This document shows, piece by piece, positions 2,492 to 62,553 of a stretch of DNA of 64,000 bases. A model generated the notes under the pieces. That model saw only the letters and a program-made list of their open reading frames with translations. It was not told the origin of the DNA and ran no database searches. The translations under genes and the position numbers were made by a program. This stretch comes from a virus. Where the stretch lies: the IMG/VR virus record IMGVR_UViG_3300028027_000001; one strand, given 5' to 3'. The first letter of the stretch is position 1, and the number at the start of each line of letters is the position of its first letter.

Positions 2492-2944
2492 TTATTTTAG
2501 TCCTTCTCTCACTTCTTTAATATGTTTACAATTCTGTTTTGATCGAATGGCACCAAAACAATTACATTTTAATCCATTCGGTGTCATTCTTACCTCATAA
2601 AAACCACCACCACTAGATGATTCAAATTTCCAGGTTTTAGGTTTTTCGATTGGTTTAGGTTCGGTAACCGGTTTTTCTCCAATAATATCTAAATCTTTGT
2701 ATCGAGTGTGAGGAACACATTCAATTCCGTATGGAATTATTACCCATTTATTCAAAGCAGCATAATGTACAACGCCTATCGCTTTGGTAGGATGTTTAGG
2801 TACCTTATATTTGAACGGTTTATGATATGCGGACTGGATATTGTCGCGTTGTGGGTATAAAATGGCTTGCTCACCTGGTTTGGTGTGTATTATTTTGTGT
2901 TCGGTTCTACCGTCTTTGTATTCGATGTGGAGTTCGTGTAACAT
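2492..2944 (-). CDS. Protein with C-terminal SWIM-type zinc finger (start revised to 2944)
   Basis: YEV...KCNC...CKHI; ATG 2944 follows the AAAGGTTATG start motif and the promoter at ~2965. Confidence 0.7.
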   Translation of the reverse strand: MLHELHIEYKDGRTEHKIIHTKPGEQAILYPQRDNIQSAYHKPFKYKVPKHPTKAIGVVHYAALNKWVIIPYGIECVPHTRYKDLDIIGEKPVTEPKPIEKPKTWKFESSSGGGFYEVRMTPNGLKCNCFGAIRSKQNCKHIKEVREGLK

Positions 2945-6900: not shown

Positions 6901-6948
6901 AACCTTATTTTTGATTGAATATACGAAAAAATATTTGGTAAGACAAAT

Positions 6949-6973
6949 GAAGGCGACAATTTCTTGCCGCCTT
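6949..6973 (-). terminator. Hairpin (AAGGCG...CGCCTT) closing the ncRNA locus
   Basis: Inverted repeat aaggcgacaa/ttgccgcctt with an A-rich flank on the + strand. Confidence 0.5.
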
Positions 6974-7099
6974 ACTTACTAGGTCACCGATGCCTCCTAG
7001 CGTGATGGGTTATTTAATGTCATTTTGTCTAATTTCACTTTACGTGACATAGTCGCAGGGTCCCATTTAACTGACAAAACCCGATTCGGTATTAAGGTG

Positions 7100-7207
7100 T
7101 AGTTAGGACAGGATTCGAACCTGTGCAGGGTGTCATCCCCCGGAGCATCTAAAGTTTTGACGTACTTATTATTGAGCTCCTGCATTACCACTTTCTGCCA
7201 TCTAACT
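7100..7207 (-). ncRNA. tRNA-like RNA A (29-nt expanded anticodon loop, long variable arm)
   Basis: AGTTAGA/CCTAACT-A acceptor, D-loop with GG, GGAGC/GCTCC stem, T arm ACAGG-TTCGAAT-CCTGT. Confidence 0.7.
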
Positions 7208-7351
7208 ATTCCATAAATTGGTTCCGTAAGCATTTTTTGATATTGAAATTCTTATTACTACAAAAGGCAGTTGAATAACAATTTGCCCATCATAACAAAT
7301 ACCTAAAGTTATTTGCCATTTTCTATAAATGCTTAATCTATATTCTCCCAT
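7202..7351 (-). CDS. Small ORF (49 aa) inside the ncRNA locus
   Basis: MGEYRLSIYRKWQITLGICYDGQIVIQLPFVVIRISISKNAYGTNLWNS; A-rich leader; stop codon falls in the acceptor stem of RNA A. Confidence 0.45.
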   Translation of the reverse strand: MGEYRLSIYRKWQITLGICYDGQIVIQLPFVVIRISISKNAYGTNLWNS

Positions 7352-7372
7352 TATATTTATTTTAATTTTTAG

Positions 7373-7438
7373 TAGTTAGGATAGGAATTGAACCTACTGC
7401 CGATTTTTCACGAGGGCCACCATTGCCACTACCTAACT
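7373..7438 (-). ncRNA. tRNA-like RNA B (66 nt, no proper anticodon arm)
   Basis: Perfect AGTTAGG/CCTAACT-A acceptor; T arm GTAGG-TTCAATT-CCTAT. Confidence 0.65.
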
Positions 7439-7557
7439 TTAAACCAAATGCTTTAGTCGCCCGGAATCCATCTGGGGCTTATTACTAGATAACTTGTAGC
7501 TTACTTACCATGGTTCATACCGTTGCTACTAGGAAACCCAACATTGCATTTTATTAG

Positions 7558-7668
7558 TGGTGAGAACAGGACTCGAACCTATATGATAGCTGCAAGCAGT
7601 CTCCACGCTGGATACATTTTAGTGCACCATAACTATCTTTTCGCGTCTACCAATTCCGCCATCTCACC
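7558..7668 (-). ncRNA. tRNA-like RNA C (Leu-type D arm, large structured insert in place of the anticodon arm)
   Basis: GGTGAGA/TCTCACC-A acceptor; GCG-GAATTGGTAGA-CGC D arm; GATAGTT/AGCTATC stem; T arm ATAGG-TTCGAGT-CCTGT. Confidence 0.7.
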
Positions 7669-7836
7669 TTAATTACAGTAGGTTGTAAGGTACTTGTTAG
7701 TTAGACTTTCTCTTACCCCTTTATTAACCTGTATCAAAAATTTTTATTTTGGACCTAACTGGTGGAAACTTGAAAAAACCACCTCACGTATAGTACACTC
7801 ACCTAAGAACTACCAAAGACTTATGCCTAACTGTCG

Positions 7837-7915
7837 TAGTCAGATTAGGACTCGAACCTAAATTAAGATGCCTATTGGACTCATACTTCTCCTATTCCAA
7901 TTAGAGGATCTGACT
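7837..7915 (-). ncRNA. tRNA-like RNA D (aberrant anticodon arm with 11-nt loop)
   Basis: AGTCAGA/TCTGACT-A acceptor; T arm TTAGG-TTCGAGT-CCTAA. Confidence 0.65.
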
Positions 7916-8080
7916 ATAAAAAACAGGAAGCACCTGTTCAGATCTTGGACACTAGTATACTTATCCTCCTGTTTCGCCACCCATGCCTTTGGGTCAATCT
8001 GTTTTGTAGTTTTATGTTTTCACATCTACATGACTTTAACTACAAAAGTACGCGTAGTAATTTAATTCCCCACGCGGAAT

Positions 8081-8158
8081 GAGGTTGAGAGCCTCTGTGT
8101 TGTAATATATCAATTTAACATTCTTAATATTTATTCACTTCTCACATGAACAACACAT
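8081..8158 (-). ncRNA. Repeated structured motif, copy 1 (putative kissing-loop RNA)
   Basis: TGTGTTGT/ACAACACA stem; TGAGA loop complementary to the loop of GAGG-CTCTCAA-CCTC. Confidence 0.55.
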
Positions 8159-8244
8159 ATAACCAGTCGCTCGCTTTAGAGTCAGCCACCCACTAATGGA
8201 TCGCACAGGAATCTAATTTCTCACACCTGTACTGATTATTATTT

Positions 8245-8339
8245 GAGGTTGAGAACCACTGTGTTGTGAGTAAGATTCTTACTTTTCAGTATGTTTCTCT
8301 CCTTTACCTTCTTACGCCTTTCTCAAGGGAACAACACAT
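8245..8339 (-). ncRNA. Repeated structured motif, copy 2 (putative kissing-loop RNA)
   Basis: Same frame as copy 1 with an unrelated interior; TTGAGAA/TTCTCAA complementarity; starts just after the promoter at ~8352. Confidence 0.55.
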
Positions 8340-8365
8340 TTCTTTTTATACCTAAATATACGAAT

Positions 8366-8853: not shown

Positions 8854-8910
8854 AACCTTTATTATTTATTAATTTTATACCTGAAATATACGAATAGGAT
8901 ATTTGGTTTC

Positions 8911-9957
8911 CTAGTCTTTGATAATCATCTTTTTAGAGTCGATTACTTTATTGTCAACTATTAATCGGTAATAGTAGATTCCTGCAGGTAAATGTTCTTT
9001 TTCAATTTCAATTTTGTTTTTTTCAGGGTCTAATTCATATTTTAAATTAAAATTAGCATAAGTAGAATACTTAATGTCAATGTATGATTTTGAATGTTTA
9101 GGGACAATATATTCAATTACTGTTGAGTATTTGAATGGGTTTGGGTAATTTTGACCTAGTTTAGGTACAACTGTATCCTGTTTGTCTAGTATGGATTGGT
9201 TAGGTTTTAAATAATCAACTAAAATGGATTTTGATTGAACACACCCATTTTTATCTGTTACATTTACCAAATAAGTTCCCGCTTTTATTGTTTTTAGGTT
9301 TTGTGTTTTAGCACCATTACTCCAAGAATATGAGTATGGTGGTGTACCATAATTAACACTTATTGATATTGAACCATTACTAGCTGTTTTAGTGTTCGGT
9401 TTAATAACAGTTTCATCAATTGTCATTGGTGTTAAAGTATCTATAACATAATGAAAACCAACAGTTTCCATAGTACATCCCTTAGAATCAACTACTCTAA
9501 CCCTATATGCACCCGCTCCCACATTTCCAGTATTTGAAATGAATGGTTTATTGTTCCTATCAAAATAATAGAATGTATATGGAAACAACCCACCACTAAC
9601 AAAATTTTCCATATGAGATAAACCACCAGGACAAACTATTGGGGTAAATGTTGTTGTTAATCTAAGCTTAAGTGGTTGTGGAATTGAGTCAGAAACTGTT
9701 TTAACACATCCCTTGGTGTCTGTTACCTTAACCGTATATTTACCCGCCTTAGATTGCAGATTCTGCGCATTATACCCGTTAGACCACTCATATTTGTATG
9801 GGCCTGTTCCACCATCTACTTTAGTTAGTAATATTTTCCCATCTCCACCAAAACAATTTGCTGATACTGGTTTGGCTGTTACAATCATTTTTGAACAATC
9901 TTGAGTATAGGAAATGAAGGGGGTTAGAAAAATAGCAATTAAAGTAGATAGTTTCAT
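8911..9957 (-). CDS. Secreted SprB-repeat protein with type IX secretion (T9SS) C-terminal sorting domain
   Basis: Signal peptide; three repeats of C.G...G.I....GGT.PY.Y.WSNG...NL.AG.Y.V.VTD..GC; C-terminal LGQNYPNPF...LPAGIYYYRL......KKMII. Confidence 0.85.
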   Translation of the reverse strand: MKLSTLIAIFLTPFISYTQDCSKMIVTAKPVSANCFGGDGKILLTKVDGGTGPYKYEWSNGYNAQNLQSKAGKYTVKVTDTKGCVKTVSDSIPQPLKLRLTTTFTPIVCPGGLSHMENFVSGGLFPYTFYYFDRNNKPFISNTGNVGAGAYRVRVVDSKGCTMETVGFHYVIDTLTPMTIDETVIKPNTKTASNGSISISVNYGTPPYSYSWSNGAKTQNLKTIKAGTYLVNVTDKNGCVQSKSILVDYLKPNQSILDKQDTVVPKLGQNYPNPFKYSTVIEYIVPKHSKSYIDIKYSTYANFNLKYELDPEKNKIEIEKEHLPAGIYYYRLIVDNKVIDSKKMIIKD

Positions 9958-52235: not shown

Positions 52236-52460
52236 TTCCCATTTAACTAAGCCAAATGGGGAAAATGCTTTGAGTAAAACTACCTACTAGGCAGCAATAC
52301 TCATATGGTTTGTGTTGCCGTTTAAAGCGTTAAATAATTCTCAATATATCGTACCTCACATGCAATCAAAGCCAAAAACACGCCCATATGTGATGTATTG
52401 TCGGTTTGTGTGTGGACGTGCCGAGAGTCGAACTCGGGTCTTACATGTTTTCCAATATAA
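52236..52460 (-). ncRNA. ssrA: Circularly permuted (two-piece) tmRNA, tag GNTNHMSIAA
   Basis: Acceptor piece ACATGTAA-GAC-CCGAG-TTCGACT-CTCGG-CACGTCC-A (52448-52413) precedes the 5' end GGGCGTG (52385); G3:U70 pair; TTGCATGT/ACATGTAA helix; tag ORF 52319-52287; outer ends approximate. Confidence 0.88.
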
Positions 52461-52476
52461 ATCAACGAACTATTCG

Positions 52477-52832: not shown

Positions 52833-52959
52833 ATTTTTTTATTTTCTTTATTATGATTGAATATACGAATAAAATATATGATATCCAAGCATTTTTTGAA
52901 AGAAATAGCATCTCTTTTTGGAGATGCTAAATCATTGGGTAACGCGGGGTTGCGCGTAG

Positions 52960-61521: not shown

Positions 61522-62553
61522 TTATGCATGGCAGCTGATACACTCATTGTCTGTAGCAATACTATCACCACGTAATGAACTTTCACTGCGCATATAATAA
61601 AGGGTTTTGATTCCCTCTTTCCATGCCAATTTATGCACATCACTAATTACTTTTGGTGGAGTGTTTGGATCAAACATAAGATTAAGTGATATGGCTTGGT
61701 CAACATATTTTTGACGTATACCATTTTGTCTAACGATTTCAAATGGGTTGATTTCCTTGAATGTTAAGAACACCTCTTTTTCCTCGTCCGATAAAATATA
61801 GTCTGGTAAATTAAGTACACTTCCTTTGTCTTCTTGGATTTGCTTCCAAACACTGTCGATATTGTAACCTTTCGCCTCTAATACGCGCTCAAGCACTGGG
61901 TTTTTCTTGATGAATGTACCTTTTGCTGTTTTCAAGTTGAATACATTTGCTGGGATTGGCTCGATTGAGGCTGATACACCTCCAGAAATATTTGCATTTG
62001 ATACTGTTGGAGCTACTGCAACGTGGTGGGTATGGCGCAATCCTGTTCCTTTACACCATTCTGGTTCACCATATAATTCGGCTTGTTCTCTAGATGCACG
62101 CAATGCACCTTGTTCAATTTTATCAAACATTAAACGTGTGTACGAATTTGCTTGTAAACCGACAAATGGGATGTTGTGTTCTTGGAGGAATGTATGCCAT
62201 CCCAACACACCAATACCAATTGCTCTACCTTTTACTGCAGACCGGTATGTGTTTTCTAATAATTTTACGTTTTTGGAACGGTCGATGAATTCTTGTAATA
62301 CACCTTCCAAAAACCAACATGCTAGTTCGGGTAAGTCCATCCCATTTTCGAATTTGTAGTCTTTCCACTCGTCCCAACGAGCCAAGTTAAGTGACGATAA
62401 ACAGCAAATGAATGAGTGAAGTTCATCTGTGTATAACGTTATTTCTGAACAATTATGTACTACTGCGCCGTTTGCATAGAAGTTGTGGTTGTCTTGTACC
62501 GTTACATCATATACCGGTTTTGTTGTGTTTACTTTTGTAATTTTTAATGCCAT
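61522..62553 (-). CDS. nrdA: Split intein C-fragment fused to the C-terminal part of class I ribonucleotide reductase alpha
   Basis: VYDVTVQDNHNFYANGAVVHN|CSEI; CCLSSLNL, GIGVLG, APT, DQAISLN, KTLYY, C-terminal CxxC. Confidence 0.92.
   Translation of the reverse strand: MALKITKVNTTKPVYDVTVQDNHNFYANGAVVHNCSEITLYTDELHSFICCLSSLNLARWDEWKDYKFENGMDLPELACWFLEGVLQEFIDRSKNVKLLENTYRSAVKGRAIGIGVLGWHTFLQEHNIPFVGLQANSYTRLMFDKIEQGALRASREQAELYGEPEWCKGTGLRHTHHVAVAPTVSNANISGGVSASIEPIPANVFNLKTAKGTFIKKNPVLERVLEAKGYNIDSVWKQIQEDKGSVLNLPDYILSDEEKEVFLTFKEINPFEIVRQNGIRQKYVDQAISLNLMFDPNTPPKVISDVHKLAWKEGIKTLYYMRSESSLRGDSIATDNECISCHA

What the first reader, a model, noticed from the sequence alone, without database searches (positions are those of the whole stretch)
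8081..8339. Two copies of an unrecognised kissing-loop RNA motif with a variable interior
Seen on the minus strand: ATGTGTTGTTC, a small hairpin with a TGAGAA loop, a variable 30-50 nt stretch, ACAACACA, then G(A/T)GG-(C/T)TCTCAA-CCTC. The outer 8-bp stem is identical in both copies. The inner hairpin stems differ in sequence but both pair (TTCAT/GTGAA and CCT/AGG). The two loops are complementary (TGAGA/TCTCA). A third TGAGAA-containing hairpin (ACAGG..CCTGT, ~8203-8230) lies between them. Inference: a conserved tertiary fold at the 5' end of the tRNA-like transcript, such as a ribozyme, nuclease-blocking knot or protein sponge. I cannot match it to a family I know.
Basis: partly seen in the sequence, partly recalled or inferred. 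Interest (0 to 1): 0.7.

Follow-up and report, generated by a model that had tools for sequence, protein, structure and literature searches.

The report
Kissing-loop RNA of phage tRNA operons
The two repeats are genuine genes of a widespread, uncatalogued family of small folded RNAs that uncultured lake phages place at the head of, or inside, their tRNA operons; matched mutations confirm the predicted loop-to-loop contact, but what the RNA does is still unknown.

Summary
Observation confirmed. Two minus-strand copies (8244-8339, 8081-8158) share the ends UGUGUUGU...ACAACACA plus a 3' hairpin, with unrelated interiors.

They belong to a large family. None occurs in GenBank phages or isolate bacterial genomes.

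The fold is a three-way junction:
- P1, 7-8 bp, conserved in sequence.
- P2, a hairpin with the 7-nt loop UUGAGAA.
- P3, a replaceable arm.
- P4, a 3' hairpin whose loop UCUCA pairs with the P2 loop.

The loop-loop pairing is kept through at least five compensatory variants (for example UGAUA/UAUCA, UUGGAA/UUCCAA, UGAGCA/UGCUCA). P4 and P3 also covary.

No Rfam 15 family matches, even at E<=10. About half of the copies end 4-6 nt before a tRNA or tRNA-shaped gene. Copy 1 starts about 15 nt after a phage promoter-like motif. Large phage contigs carry one or two copies.

Best reading: a compact small RNA co-transcribed with tRNAs and cut out by tRNA-processing enzymes. Its target is unknown. A ribozyme, antitermination, nuclease-block or oligomer role is not excluded.

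This scan has already met the same family on other phage DNA (e1-5392361, e1-5679601, e1-5706451).

The parts
8355..8364 (-). Phage promoter-like motif TTCGTATATT, about 15 nt upstream of copy 1
   Evidence: 17 copies in the window, all on the minus (gene) strand, against 0.47 expected. Further copies at 8885-8894 and 6918-6927 lie upstream of ORFs.
8244..8339 (-). Kissing-loop RNA copy 1. P1 8331-8338 pairs with 8260-8267. P2 spans 8316-8330, with loop L2 UUGAGAA at 8320-8326. The A-rich J2/3 and the P3 arm (AGUAAG/CUUACU, 8269-8283) follow. P4 is GUGG/CCUC at 8245-8259, with loop L4 UUCUCAA at 8249-8255.
   Evidence: Sequence; covariance model R1 72.5 bits, E 1e-13; the same interior as L029:6232-6329.
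8160..8243 (-). Separate conserved RNA module between the copies, closed by AAUCAGU/ACUGGUU. It holds the 'third' ACAGG/CCUGU hairpin.
   Evidence: Homologues in L012, L134 and L166 have the same ends but a different middle. Fold z = -2.65.
8081..8158 (-). Kissing-loop RNA copy 2. P1 8150-8157 pairs with 8096-8103. P2 is UUCAU/GUGAA at 8134-8150, with loop GUGAGAA at 8139-8145. The interior with P3 is 8104-8133. P4 is GAGG/CCUC at 8081-8095, with loop CUCUCAA at 8085-8091.
   Evidence: Sequence; R1 79 bits, E 3e-15. A syntenic copy in L134 has the same neighbours but a different interior.
7921..8080 (-). Downstream conserved module (contains ACAGAUUGACCCAAAGGCAUGGGU), ending in a terminator-like hairpin at 7921-7939 just before a tRNA-shaped gene
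   Evidence: The same string follows the motif in L002, L134 and L151.
6950..7915 (-). Rest of the non-coding operon: tRNA-shaped genes with enlarged anticodon regions (7558-7668, 7373-7438, 7100-7207, and a T-arm at 7830-7860), closed by a terminator-like hairpin at 6950-6973
   Evidence: Rfam tRNA hits of 36.2, 26.3 and 33.8 bits with 17-53 nt inserts; T-arm repeat family D1; hairpin.

Best explanation
Each copy is a gene for a small non-coding RNA of about 80-100 nt, from a large family specific to uncultured phages.

Fold (shown by comparison):
- A 7-8 bp closing helix P1 (GUGUUGU/ACAACAC, conserved in sequence).
- P1 opens into a three-way junction.
- P2 is a 4-5 bp hairpin with the 7-nt loop YUGAGAA.
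- A purine-rich J2/3 follows.
- P3 is a replaceable arm that abuts P1.
- One base after P1 comes the P4 hairpin, 4-5 bp. Its 7-9 nt loop (UCUCA) forms 5-7 base pairs with the P2 loop.

Expression (inferred): in this window the two copies are the first elements of a 1.4-kb untranslated operon, transcribed from the phage promoter-like motif at 8355-8364.

Mechanism (inferred): the RNA is released by the enzymes that mature the neighbouring tRNAs and tRNA-shaped RNAs (RNase P at the downstream 5' end, RNase Z or E upstream). The loop-loop lock buries both termini, which would make a stable particle. The invariant core (P1, junction, kissing helix) would be the surface recognised by a conserved partner. 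P3 would be an exchangeable second module, giving a Y-RNA-like adaptor logic. The partner and the biological effect are unknown.
For: Family size: 38, 51, at least 120 and at least 120 IMG/VR stretches with four different exact patterns. 106 covariance-model hits, 104 distinct.

Structure:
- 92.7% of cells are paired, against 32-48% when partners are slid.
- 7 pairs change on both sides.
- 0 of 500 shuffles reach any measure.
- P4 is 99.3% paired, with GAGG/CCUC, AAGG/CCUU, GAAG/CUUC, AAUG/CAUU and AAGGG/CCCUU.
- P3 is always present but with unrelated sequences, 0-1 nt from P1.

Kissing helix:
- 96.7% paired.
- Compensatory variants: L157 UGAUA/UAUCA, L162 UUGGAA/UUCCAA, L168 UGAGCA/UGCUCA, L169 UGAGC/GCUCA, L143b GAAA/UUUC.
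- G-U variants are also seen.
- In L143 two copies in one contig carry different loop pairs, each matching itself.

RNA strand: 40 G-U cells against 18 A-C cells; same strand as all genes and tRNAs.

Context:
- 23 of 104 copies are followed by an ARAGORN tRNA 2-4 nt after the model end.
- 26 more are followed by an RGUCNNG tRNA-like 5' end.
- 70 of 104 have a same-strand tRNA within 1 kb.
- Promoter motif.
- One or two copies per large contig, including two complete genomes.

P3 types are individually conserved and are shared between different scaffolds, for example L123 versus L070 and L130. One type occurs with at least six P4 variants.

Precedent: T4 makes two stable RNAs of unknown role from its tRNA cluster (PMC3014915).
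Against:
- Release by RNase P/Z is inferred from spacing only.
- About half of the copies abut other RNA modules rather than tRNAs.
- The homologue set was gathered with exact patterns, so conservation of P1 and the loops is partly by construction.
- No candidate partner was found. No protein family is linked (best 19 of 178 loci), and there is no Ro60/TROVE in 5 contigs.
- By my own rough helix-length estimate, a one-base P1-P4 linker strains an intramolecular kiss unless P4 bends across. The pairing could therefore be between molecules.
- The MFE folds prefer a CCUU/AAGG-GAGA tetraloop register for P2, which competes with the kiss.
Confidence: 0.45

Rival explanations
1. Cis-acting leader element of long untranslated RNA operons. 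The folded RNA stays on the nascent transcript and either makes RNA polymerase resistant to termination (like HK022 put or EAR) or shields the transcript 5' region from end-dependent decay.
For: - Copy 1 starts about 15 nt after the promoter-like motif.
- The larger class-B form was found at the head of RNA or tRNA arrays in the loci I read, after AT-rich non-RNA sequence.
- Copy number is low, one or two per genome.
- The sequence is near-invariant across many phages, which fits a universally conserved target such as RNA polymerase.
- A terminator-like hairpin (7921-7939) lies inside the window operon. No further copy of the promoter motif precedes the tRNA-shaped genes.
Against: - Many copies lie inside arrays, 2-4 nt from tRNAs on one or both sides. 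RNase P/Z cleavage would sever the tether that put-type RNAs need.
- Individually conserved P3 types are not explained.
- No Rfam antitermination family matched.
Confidence: 0.22
2. A new class of small self-cleaving ribozyme that trims the neighbouring tRNA precursor, as proposed for the HDV-like theta ribozymes of gut phages.
For: - It is a pseudoknotted, compact RNA of about 45 conserved nucleotides with a dispensable peripheral arm.
- It sits a few bases from tRNA ends.
- Precedent: ribozymes are associated with phage tRNAs (PMC10879173).
Against: - Few conserved unpaired nucleotides could form an active site. Conservation lies mainly in the helices.
- No Rfam ribozyme family matches at E<=10.
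- The helix order is incompatible with the HDV nested double pseudoknot.
- Most copies lie 5' of tRNAs, where RNase P already acts.
Confidence: 0.1
3. The complementary loops pair between molecules, so the RNA forms dimers or rings. This would resemble phi29 packaging RNA or the ROOL and GOLLD cages.
For: - Covariation cannot distinguish cis pairing from homomeric trans pairing.
- By my rough helix-length estimate, the one-base P1-P4 linker makes a standard coaxial intramolecular kiss difficult.
- ROOL and GOLLD, also encoded near phage tRNA islands, assemble through RNA-RNA contacts (PMC12286853).
Against: - In the class-B form the partner strand is not in a hairpin loop. It follows P1 after a 7-nt linker, an ordinary H-type pseudoknot that can form in cis.
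- Two copies within one contig keep self-matching, mutually different loops (L143). This excludes pairing between copies, but not homodimers.
Confidence: 0.08
4. The conserved ends are kept mainly at the DNA level, as recombination linkers or nuclease sites that let phages swap the interior cassettes. The RNA fold would then be incidental.
For: - The same interiors occur in different scaffolds, and syntenic copies carry different interiors: window copy 2 versus L134, and L123 versus L070 and L130.
- GIY-YIG and HNH homing nucleases are the commonest annotated neighbours.
Against: - Compensatory changes in the loop-loop helix, P4 and P3 preserve RNA pairing.
- G-U outnumbers A-C 40 to 18.
- The strand is fixed relative to the tRNAs.
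Confidence: 0.03

Closest known systems
Phage T4 RNA D and RNA C (species 2 and species 1 stable RNAs, rnaD/rnaC)
   Same: - They are small stable RNAs encoded next to tRNA-Arg in the tRNA cluster of a T4-type phage, on the tRNA strand.
- Their roles are unknown (PMC3014915; PMC9697503).
- The window phage is itself a distant T4-like phage by its DNA polymerase.
- T4 rnaD contains CUGAUGGUUCCCUGAGUAAGGAA...CAUCACAG. This resembles P1 plus P2, with a U-A to A-U swap in P1.
- rnaD homologues also have constant ends and a variable middle.
   Different: - The covariance model gives rnaD only 8.6 bits, E 0.6.
- The AGGAA half of the P2-like hairpin is not kept in JS98, ECO4 or SP1.
- rnaD has no P4 hairpin or loop partner.
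- rnaD has an extra outer stem and a 5' hairpin.
- Homology is possible but not shown.
HK022 putL/putR and EAR processive-antitermination RNAs
   Same: Compact, sequence-conserved folded RNAs placed early in long operons, with one or two copies per genome (established knowledge, recalled from memory; a lead also raised in scan note e1-5392361).
   Different: - No sequence or structural match was tested beyond Rfam, where nothing matched.
- Many motif copies lie between tRNAs, where processing would detach them.
- put RNAs have no loop-loop pseudoknot or exchangeable arm.
Theta (minimal HDV-like) ribozymes next to phage tRNAs
   Same: Small pseudoknotted RNAs that abut tRNA genes of uncultured Caudoviricetes. 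They are proposed to process tRNA ends (PMC10879173).
   Different: - Theta ribozymes lie 3' of tRNAs and have the HDV nested double pseudoknot.
- This motif has the helix order P1-P2-P3-P1'-P4, with one loop-loop helix.
- It mostly lies 5' of tRNAs.
- It matches no HDV model.
GOLLD and ROOL ornate RNAs
   Same: Phage RNAs of unknown function encoded near tRNA islands (PMC12286853).
   Different: They are roughly six to ten times larger (about 580-nt ROOL, size from memory; over 800-nt GOLLD, PMC12286853), and their Rfam models do not match the window or 12 related loci.
phi29 pRNA; flavivirus and plant-virus xrRNAs (structural analogues only)
   Same: - pRNA: a three-way junction with two loops whose complementarity covaries.
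- xrRNA: a three-way junction or stem whose apical loop pairs with sequence just 3' of the closing helix, forming a ring.
- Both points are from established knowledge.
   Different: - pRNA loops pair between molecules, and the RNA serves DNA packaging.
- xrRNAs block the eukaryotic exonuclease Xrn1.
- Neither is associated with tRNAs, and no sequence relationship is seen.
STnc100 / PasD prophage small RNAs (Rfam RF02076)
   Same: Prophage-encoded structured small RNAs with a conserved scaffold and differing target-pairing (seed) regions (bioRxiv 10.64898/2026.05.13.724894).
   Different: - They are enterobacterial, Hfq-dependent base-pairing RNAs.
- RF02076 does not match here.
- I found no significant complementarity between the motif interiors and the window.

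Membership tests
Any Rfam 15 family | Covariance-model score at or near the family's gathering threshold | tested here: not met
   There is no hit over 8081-8339 at gathering threshold or at E<=10 with permissive filters. Class-B relatives also have no hit.
HDV-like / theta ribozymes | Nested double pseudoknot (P1, P2, P3, P1.1, P4) with P1 at the cleavage site | tested here: not met
   The helix order found is P1-P2-P3-P1'-P4 with one loop-loop helix. No HDV-family model matches.
HDV-like / theta ribozymes | Self-cleavage | not testable with these tools
   This needs in vitro transcription.
T4 RNA D / RNA C | Encoded inside the tRNA cluster of a T4-type phage, on the tRNA strand | tested here: met
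   Window context. Polymerase relationship to T4-like phages, at most 30% identity. T4 annotation.
T4 RNA D / RNA C | Detectable sequence or structure homology to rnaD or rnaC | tested here: inconclusive
   R1 gives 8.6 bits, E 0.6, inside rnaD. There is a P1/P2-like string in T4, but its 3' half is not conserved in T-even homologues.
tRNA / tRNA-like structure | Cloverleaf with a T-loop and acceptor end | tested here: not met
   The Rfam tRNA model hits the neighbouring elements but not the motif, and ARAGORN finds nothing there. By my own reading, the 7-nt loop UUGAGAA lacks the U54-A58 T-loop pattern.
GOLLD / ROOL | Match to RF01998 or RF03087; length 500-800 nt | tested here: not met
   No hit. 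The motif is 80-160 nt.
STnc100 / PasD | Match to RF02076 | tested here: not met
   No hit.
Bacterial Y RNA (YrlA) with Ro60 | Ro60/TROVE gene in the same genome | tested here: not met
   PF05731 is absent from 5 motif-bearing contigs, including two that are 99-100% complete, and the controls worked. A host Ro60 was not testable.
Exonuclease-resistant RNA (xrRNA) | Blocks a 5'-3' exonuclease through a ring-forming pseudoknot | not testable with these tools
   Only the topology (an apical loop pairing just 3' of P1) is analogous. No Rfam xrRNA family matched.

The most novel reading that the evidence does not exclude
The whole 1.4-kb locus, and its counterparts in hundreds of lake phages, is a natural 'RNA display' system. 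Constant, nuclease-proof scaffolds each carry an exchangeable structured cargo arm, and are cut apart by the host's tRNA-processing enzymes. The scaffolds are the kissing-loop three-way junction, module X, and the tRNA-shaped RNAs without an anticodon arm. The cargo arms, conserved as discrete types and shuffled between scaffolds, would be aptamer-like decoys or adaptors aimed at host factors such as tRNA-targeting defence nucleases.
Probability: 0.15. Interest if true: 0.85.

Novelty: new variant of a known kind. Interest (0 to 1): 0.6.

Why it matters
For fifty years, phage tRNA clusters have been known to encode extra stable RNAs (T4 RNA C and D) whose function nobody has explained.

This family has several useful properties:
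- It is a sequence-defined and very widespread member of that niche.
- It has a compact fold proven by covariation.
- It has an almost invariant core.
- It has a swappable arm.

That makes it an unusually tractable entry point. It is small enough for structure determination and for ribozyme, RNase P and exonuclease assays. Its conservation implies a universal partner.

If it proves to be a ribozyme, an RNA-polymerase modifier or a decoy scaffold, it would add a new functional RNA class to phage biology. It might also explain the T4 RNAs.

Tried and rejected
- Rfam at gathering threshold and at E<=10 on the window and on 12 related loci: only tRNA, tmRNA and noise.
- GenBank phages, by megablast and blastn with the 1.4-2 kb region and with a consensus member: no true match. 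The Streptomyces, Clostridium and Pseudoalteromonas phage hits are 20-25 nt chance matches, mostly inside annotated genes.
- Bacterial and archaeal species genomes: only 8 contigs, all lake or other metagenome-assembled bins from unrelated phyla, probably mis-binned phage. No host could be inferred.
- Own genome not held.
- Antisense idea: the interiors of both copies have no complementarity to the 64-kb window beyond shuffled controls. The longest matches were 9 and 12 nt, against shuffle means of 10.6 and 11.7.
- Linked protein partner: all-against-all clustering of 1,753 ORFs from 178 loci gave no family in more than 19 loci. The annotated ones are GIY-YIG and HNH homing nucleases, an RNase H-like protein and a Band 7 protein.
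- Ro60/TROVE: absent.
- Cas13b direct-repeat mimicry (GUUG...CAAC ends with a CCUU/AAGG hairpin) was considered from memory only. I dropped it because the P4 kiss and the long interior have no counterpart, and no tool could test it.
- tRNA-minihelix mimicry (P1+P2 = 12 bp plus a 7-nt loop, with G1-C72 and A73-like positions) was considered. By my own helix-length estimate, coaxial P1/P2 stacking is incompatible with the covarying L2-L4 helix, and L2 is not a T-loop.
- Literature: no paper in the library contains the motif strings. The 10,006-motif viral catalogue (PMC10690425) may include it, but its tables are not held.

Full report
**1.

On the minus strand there are two elements with the same ends and unrelated middles.
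- Copy 1 spans 8244-8339.
- Copy 2 spans 8081-8158.
- Each begins with UGUGUUGU followed by a small hairpin. That hairpin is UUCCC/AGG.. with loop UUGAGAA in copy 1, and UUCAU/GUGAA with loop GUGAGAA in copy 2.
- Each ends with ACAACACA followed by G(U/A)GG-(U/C)UCUCAA-CCUC.

The 23-nt 3' block occurs twice in 64 kb and never in 100 shuffles. The arm pair is likewise unexpected.

Free energies of the window copies are not exceptional (z = -0.04 and -1.25). The sequence alone would therefore not prove a structure.

**2. It is a large family.**

Scans of IMG/VR viral contigs with exact patterns gave:
- 38 stretches for the 3' block with two free positions.
- 51 stretches with the whole 3' loop left free.

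A covariance model (R1), built from 25 members (alignment A1), found 106 copies, 104 of them distinct, in 89 stretches at E<=6e-5.

Distribution elsewhere:
- GenBank phages contain no member.
- Among 185,579 species genomes, only eight contigs of metagenome-assembled bins from unrelated phyla carry it. These are most simply mis-binned phage DNA.
- The window's own phage is a distant T4-like phage. Its family-B polymerase is at most 30% identical to those of Microcystis phage Mel-JY01, Synechococcus phage S-CRM01 and the T-even phages.
- It carries GroEL, ThyA and an intein-containing ribonucleotide reductase. It also encodes proteins with Bacteroidota-type secretion signals.

**3. The fold.**

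Comparison defines a three-way junction plus a 3' hairpin.
- P1 (GUGUUGU/ACAACAC) is 95% paired. It is nearly invariant even where the search pattern did not force it. Rare compensated variants exist, UGCGUUG/CAACGCA in L130 and L143.
- P2 is a 4-5 bp hairpin. Its stem covaries: UUCCC/AGGAA, UUCAU/AUGAA, UUCUU/AAGGAA, ACC/GGU.
- The P2 loop is always 7 nt, YUGAGAN.
- J2/3 is purine-rich and of variable length. It often ends in AAG, AAA or UAA.
- P3 is a helix of at least 4 bp in the copies that could be scored. Its sequences are unrelated, and it lies 0-1 nt from the 3' strand of P1.
- P4 follows P1 after one base and is 99% paired. Variants are GAGG/CCUC, AAGG/CCUU, GAAG/CUUC, AAUG/CAUU and AAGGG/CCCUU.

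On the 104 distinct sequences:
- 92.7% of cells are paired, against 32-48% when partners are slid by 1-3 columns.
- Seven pairs change on both sides.
- None of 500 shuffles reaches any of the five measures.

G-U outnumbers A-C by 40 to 18. This fits an RNA read from the gene strand.

Minimum-energy folds of typical members reproduce P1-P4 (z down to -3.05). They prefer a CCUU/AAGG stem with a GAGA tetraloop for P2, which would compete with the kiss.

**4. The kissing loops are real.**
- In the commonest form the two loops are perfect 7-mer complements (UUGAGAA/UUCUCAA).
- In the alignment the 5-bp helix is 96.7% paired.
- With the loop left free in the search, variants appeared whose partner had changed to match: L157 UGAUA/UAUCA, L162 UUGGAA/UUCCAA, L168 UGAGCA/UGCUCA, L169 UGAGC/GCUCA, and L143 GAAA/UUUC.
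- Several G-U variants were also seen: UCUUA in L042 and L166, and UUUCA in L047.
- Exceptions are few. L138 keeps 3 of 6 pairs. The AACUCAA loops keep four pairs.
- In L143 two copies on one contig have different loop pairs, each self-consistent. The contact is therefore within a copy, or between identical molecules, and not between different copies.

**5. A second architecture.**

About a quarter of the hits share P1, P2, the exchangeable arm and the same covarying loop partner. In these, UUCUCA is not in a small hairpin.
- It follows P1 after AAAUGAG.
- It runs into a longer conserved domain (GC..GACCCUAC..hairpin..GAGGGUGCUAAA, with an optional inserted stem).
- The whole is preceded by a covarying hairpin (CUAUC-AGUAAU-GGUAG and variants).

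This 120-330 nt 'class B' RNA stands at the head of RNA or tRNA arrays in the loci I read (for example L081). It also has no Rfam match. Intermediates such as L107, L096 and L153 link the two forms.

Identical P3 arms occur in both classes (L123 versus L070 and L130). One arm type occurs with at least six different P4 hairpins, and an internal hairpin of that arm itself covaries in L039. The 'variable interior' is therefore a set of alternative arms, each conserved, and not junk.

**6. Context.**

In the window:
- The motif TTCGTATATT occurs 17 times, always on the gene strand, against 0.47 expected.
- One copy lies at 8355-8364, about 15 nt before copy 1.
- The next copy lies at 6918-6927, just after a terminator-like hairpin at 6950-6973.
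- Between them is a 1.4-kb stretch with only short (78 aa or less) minus-strand ORFs. It reads copy 1, module X, copy 2, a conserved module ending in a terminator-like hairpin (7921-7939), then tRNA-shaped genes with enlarged anticodon regions.

Across the family:
- 23 of 104 copies are followed by a canonical tRNA that starts 2-4 nt after the model end. Leu and Phe are the most frequent.
- 26 more are followed by the 5' end of tRNA-shaped RNAs (RGUCNNG...).
- Nine are preceded by a tRNA 3' end within about 1 nt of the model start.
- 70 have a same-strand tRNA within 1 kb.
- The remaining neighbours are other recurrent RNA modules.
- Large contigs, including two estimated 99-100% complete (270 and 362 kb), carry one or two copies. 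This argues against a generic spacer between tRNAs.
- No protein family is linked.

**7. What it is not, and the T4 lead.**
- No Rfam 15 family matches, even at E<=10.
- The helix order excludes the HDV-like fold of theta ribozymes.
- GOLLD, ROOL and STnc100 models do not match.
- No Ro60 gene is present in five contigs.

T4 encodes rnaD and rnaC next to tRNA-Arg. Their roles are still unknown (PMC3014915). T4 rnaD contains a string much like P1 plus P2, and T-even rnaD homologues also have constant ends and a variable middle. However, the model scores rnaD at only 8.6 bits (E 0.6). The 3' half of the hairpin is not conserved in JS98, ECO4 or SP1, and there is no P4. I treat homology as possible but unproven.

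**8. How it most likely works.**

Shown: a compact fold in which both termini are base-paired and a loop-loop helix ties the 3' hairpin to the junction.

Inferred:
- Transcription from the promoter motif.
- Excision by RNase P at the downstream tRNA and by RNase Z or E upstream, giving a stable small RNA.
- The invariant core as a recognition surface for a conserved partner, with P3 as a second, exchangeable module.

My own rough geometry (helix lengths, not a computed model) has two consequences. The kiss cannot coexist with coaxial P1/P2. It needs P1 to stack on P3, P2 to fold back along P1, and P4 to bridge across as a closed ring, which is the topology of exonuclease-resistant RNAs. Otherwise the loops must pair between molecules, as in phi29 pRNA.

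The position at operon heads, the low copy number and the internal terminator-like hairpin keep a put-like antitermination or leader role alive. Proximity to tRNA ends keeps a ribozyme role alive. None of these can be decided in silico.

**9. Novelty.**

The family is absent from Rfam 15, and its strings occur in no paper of the searchable library. It may be an unnamed entry in the 10,006-motif viral catalogue (PMC10690425), whose tables I could not read.

Earlier notes of this same scan describe the same family on other phage DNA and likewise found no function:
- e1-5392361: more than 220 stretches.
- e1-5679601.
- e1-5706451 and e1-5706463.
- Probably also e1-5669156 and e1-5632922.

These are AI notes, not independent evidence. 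I re-derived the family, the fold and the covariation here.

Noticed in passing
window 8160-8243 (-): An 84-nt module lies between the two copies, closed by AAUCAGU/ACUGGUU. Homologues in L012, L134 and L166 have the same ends (…GACUGACUCUAAAGCGAGCGACUGRUUA) but a different middle. This is another RNA with constant ends and a variable middle.
   Followed up: partly
window 7940-8080 (-); also L002, L134, L151: A conserved module containing ACAGAUUGACNCAAAGGCAUGGGU follows the kissing-loop RNA in several phages. It has no Rfam match, and its function is unknown.
   Followed up: no
window 7558-7668, 7373-7438, 7100-7207, 7830-7915 (-): tRNA-shaped genes with a normal acceptor, D and T arms but 17-53 nt inserted at the anticodon region. 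ARAGORN does not call them. Many family members elsewhere are followed by similar AGUCAGGUGGCGGAAUGGUAGACGC... elements.
   Followed up: partly
window, 17 sites on the minus strand (e.g. 2471-2480, 8355-8364, 52860-52869): TTCGTATATT is a strongly over-represented, strand-specific motif upstream of genes. It is probably a phage promoter element. The same motif occurs in L081.
   Followed up: partly
window 52287-52462 (-): An Rfam permuted-tmRNA hit (53.5 bits, gathering score 47) lies inside a second tRNA cluster (Thr, Ser, Glu, Ala).
   Followed up: no
L058, L060, L081, L087, L102, L115 and about 30 others: 'Class B' RNA of 120-330 nt: the same P1/P2/P3 core and covarying pseudoknot, plus a 5' covarying hairpin and a 3' GACCCUAC...GAGGGUGCUAAA domain. 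It stands at the head of tRNA arrays and has no Rfam match.
   Followed up: partly
about 17 loci, e.g. L001, L006, L013, L036 (just upstream of the motif): A recurrent string GGAGCGAGACGGGUACUCCAUCACUAUCAA directly precedes many copies. It looks like the 3' end of yet another conserved RNA module.
   Followed up: no
L179 (T4) 2554-2672 (-): T4 rnaD carries a P1/P2-like string. Its T-even homologues have invariant ends and a hypervariable middle, the same design as the family studied here.
   Followed up: partly
window 8911-9957 (-) and 61522-62553 (-): A phage protein with SprB repeats and a type IX secretion C-terminal sorting domain hints at a Bacteroidota host. A ribonucleotide reductase fragment carries an intein splicing domain.
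   Followed up: no
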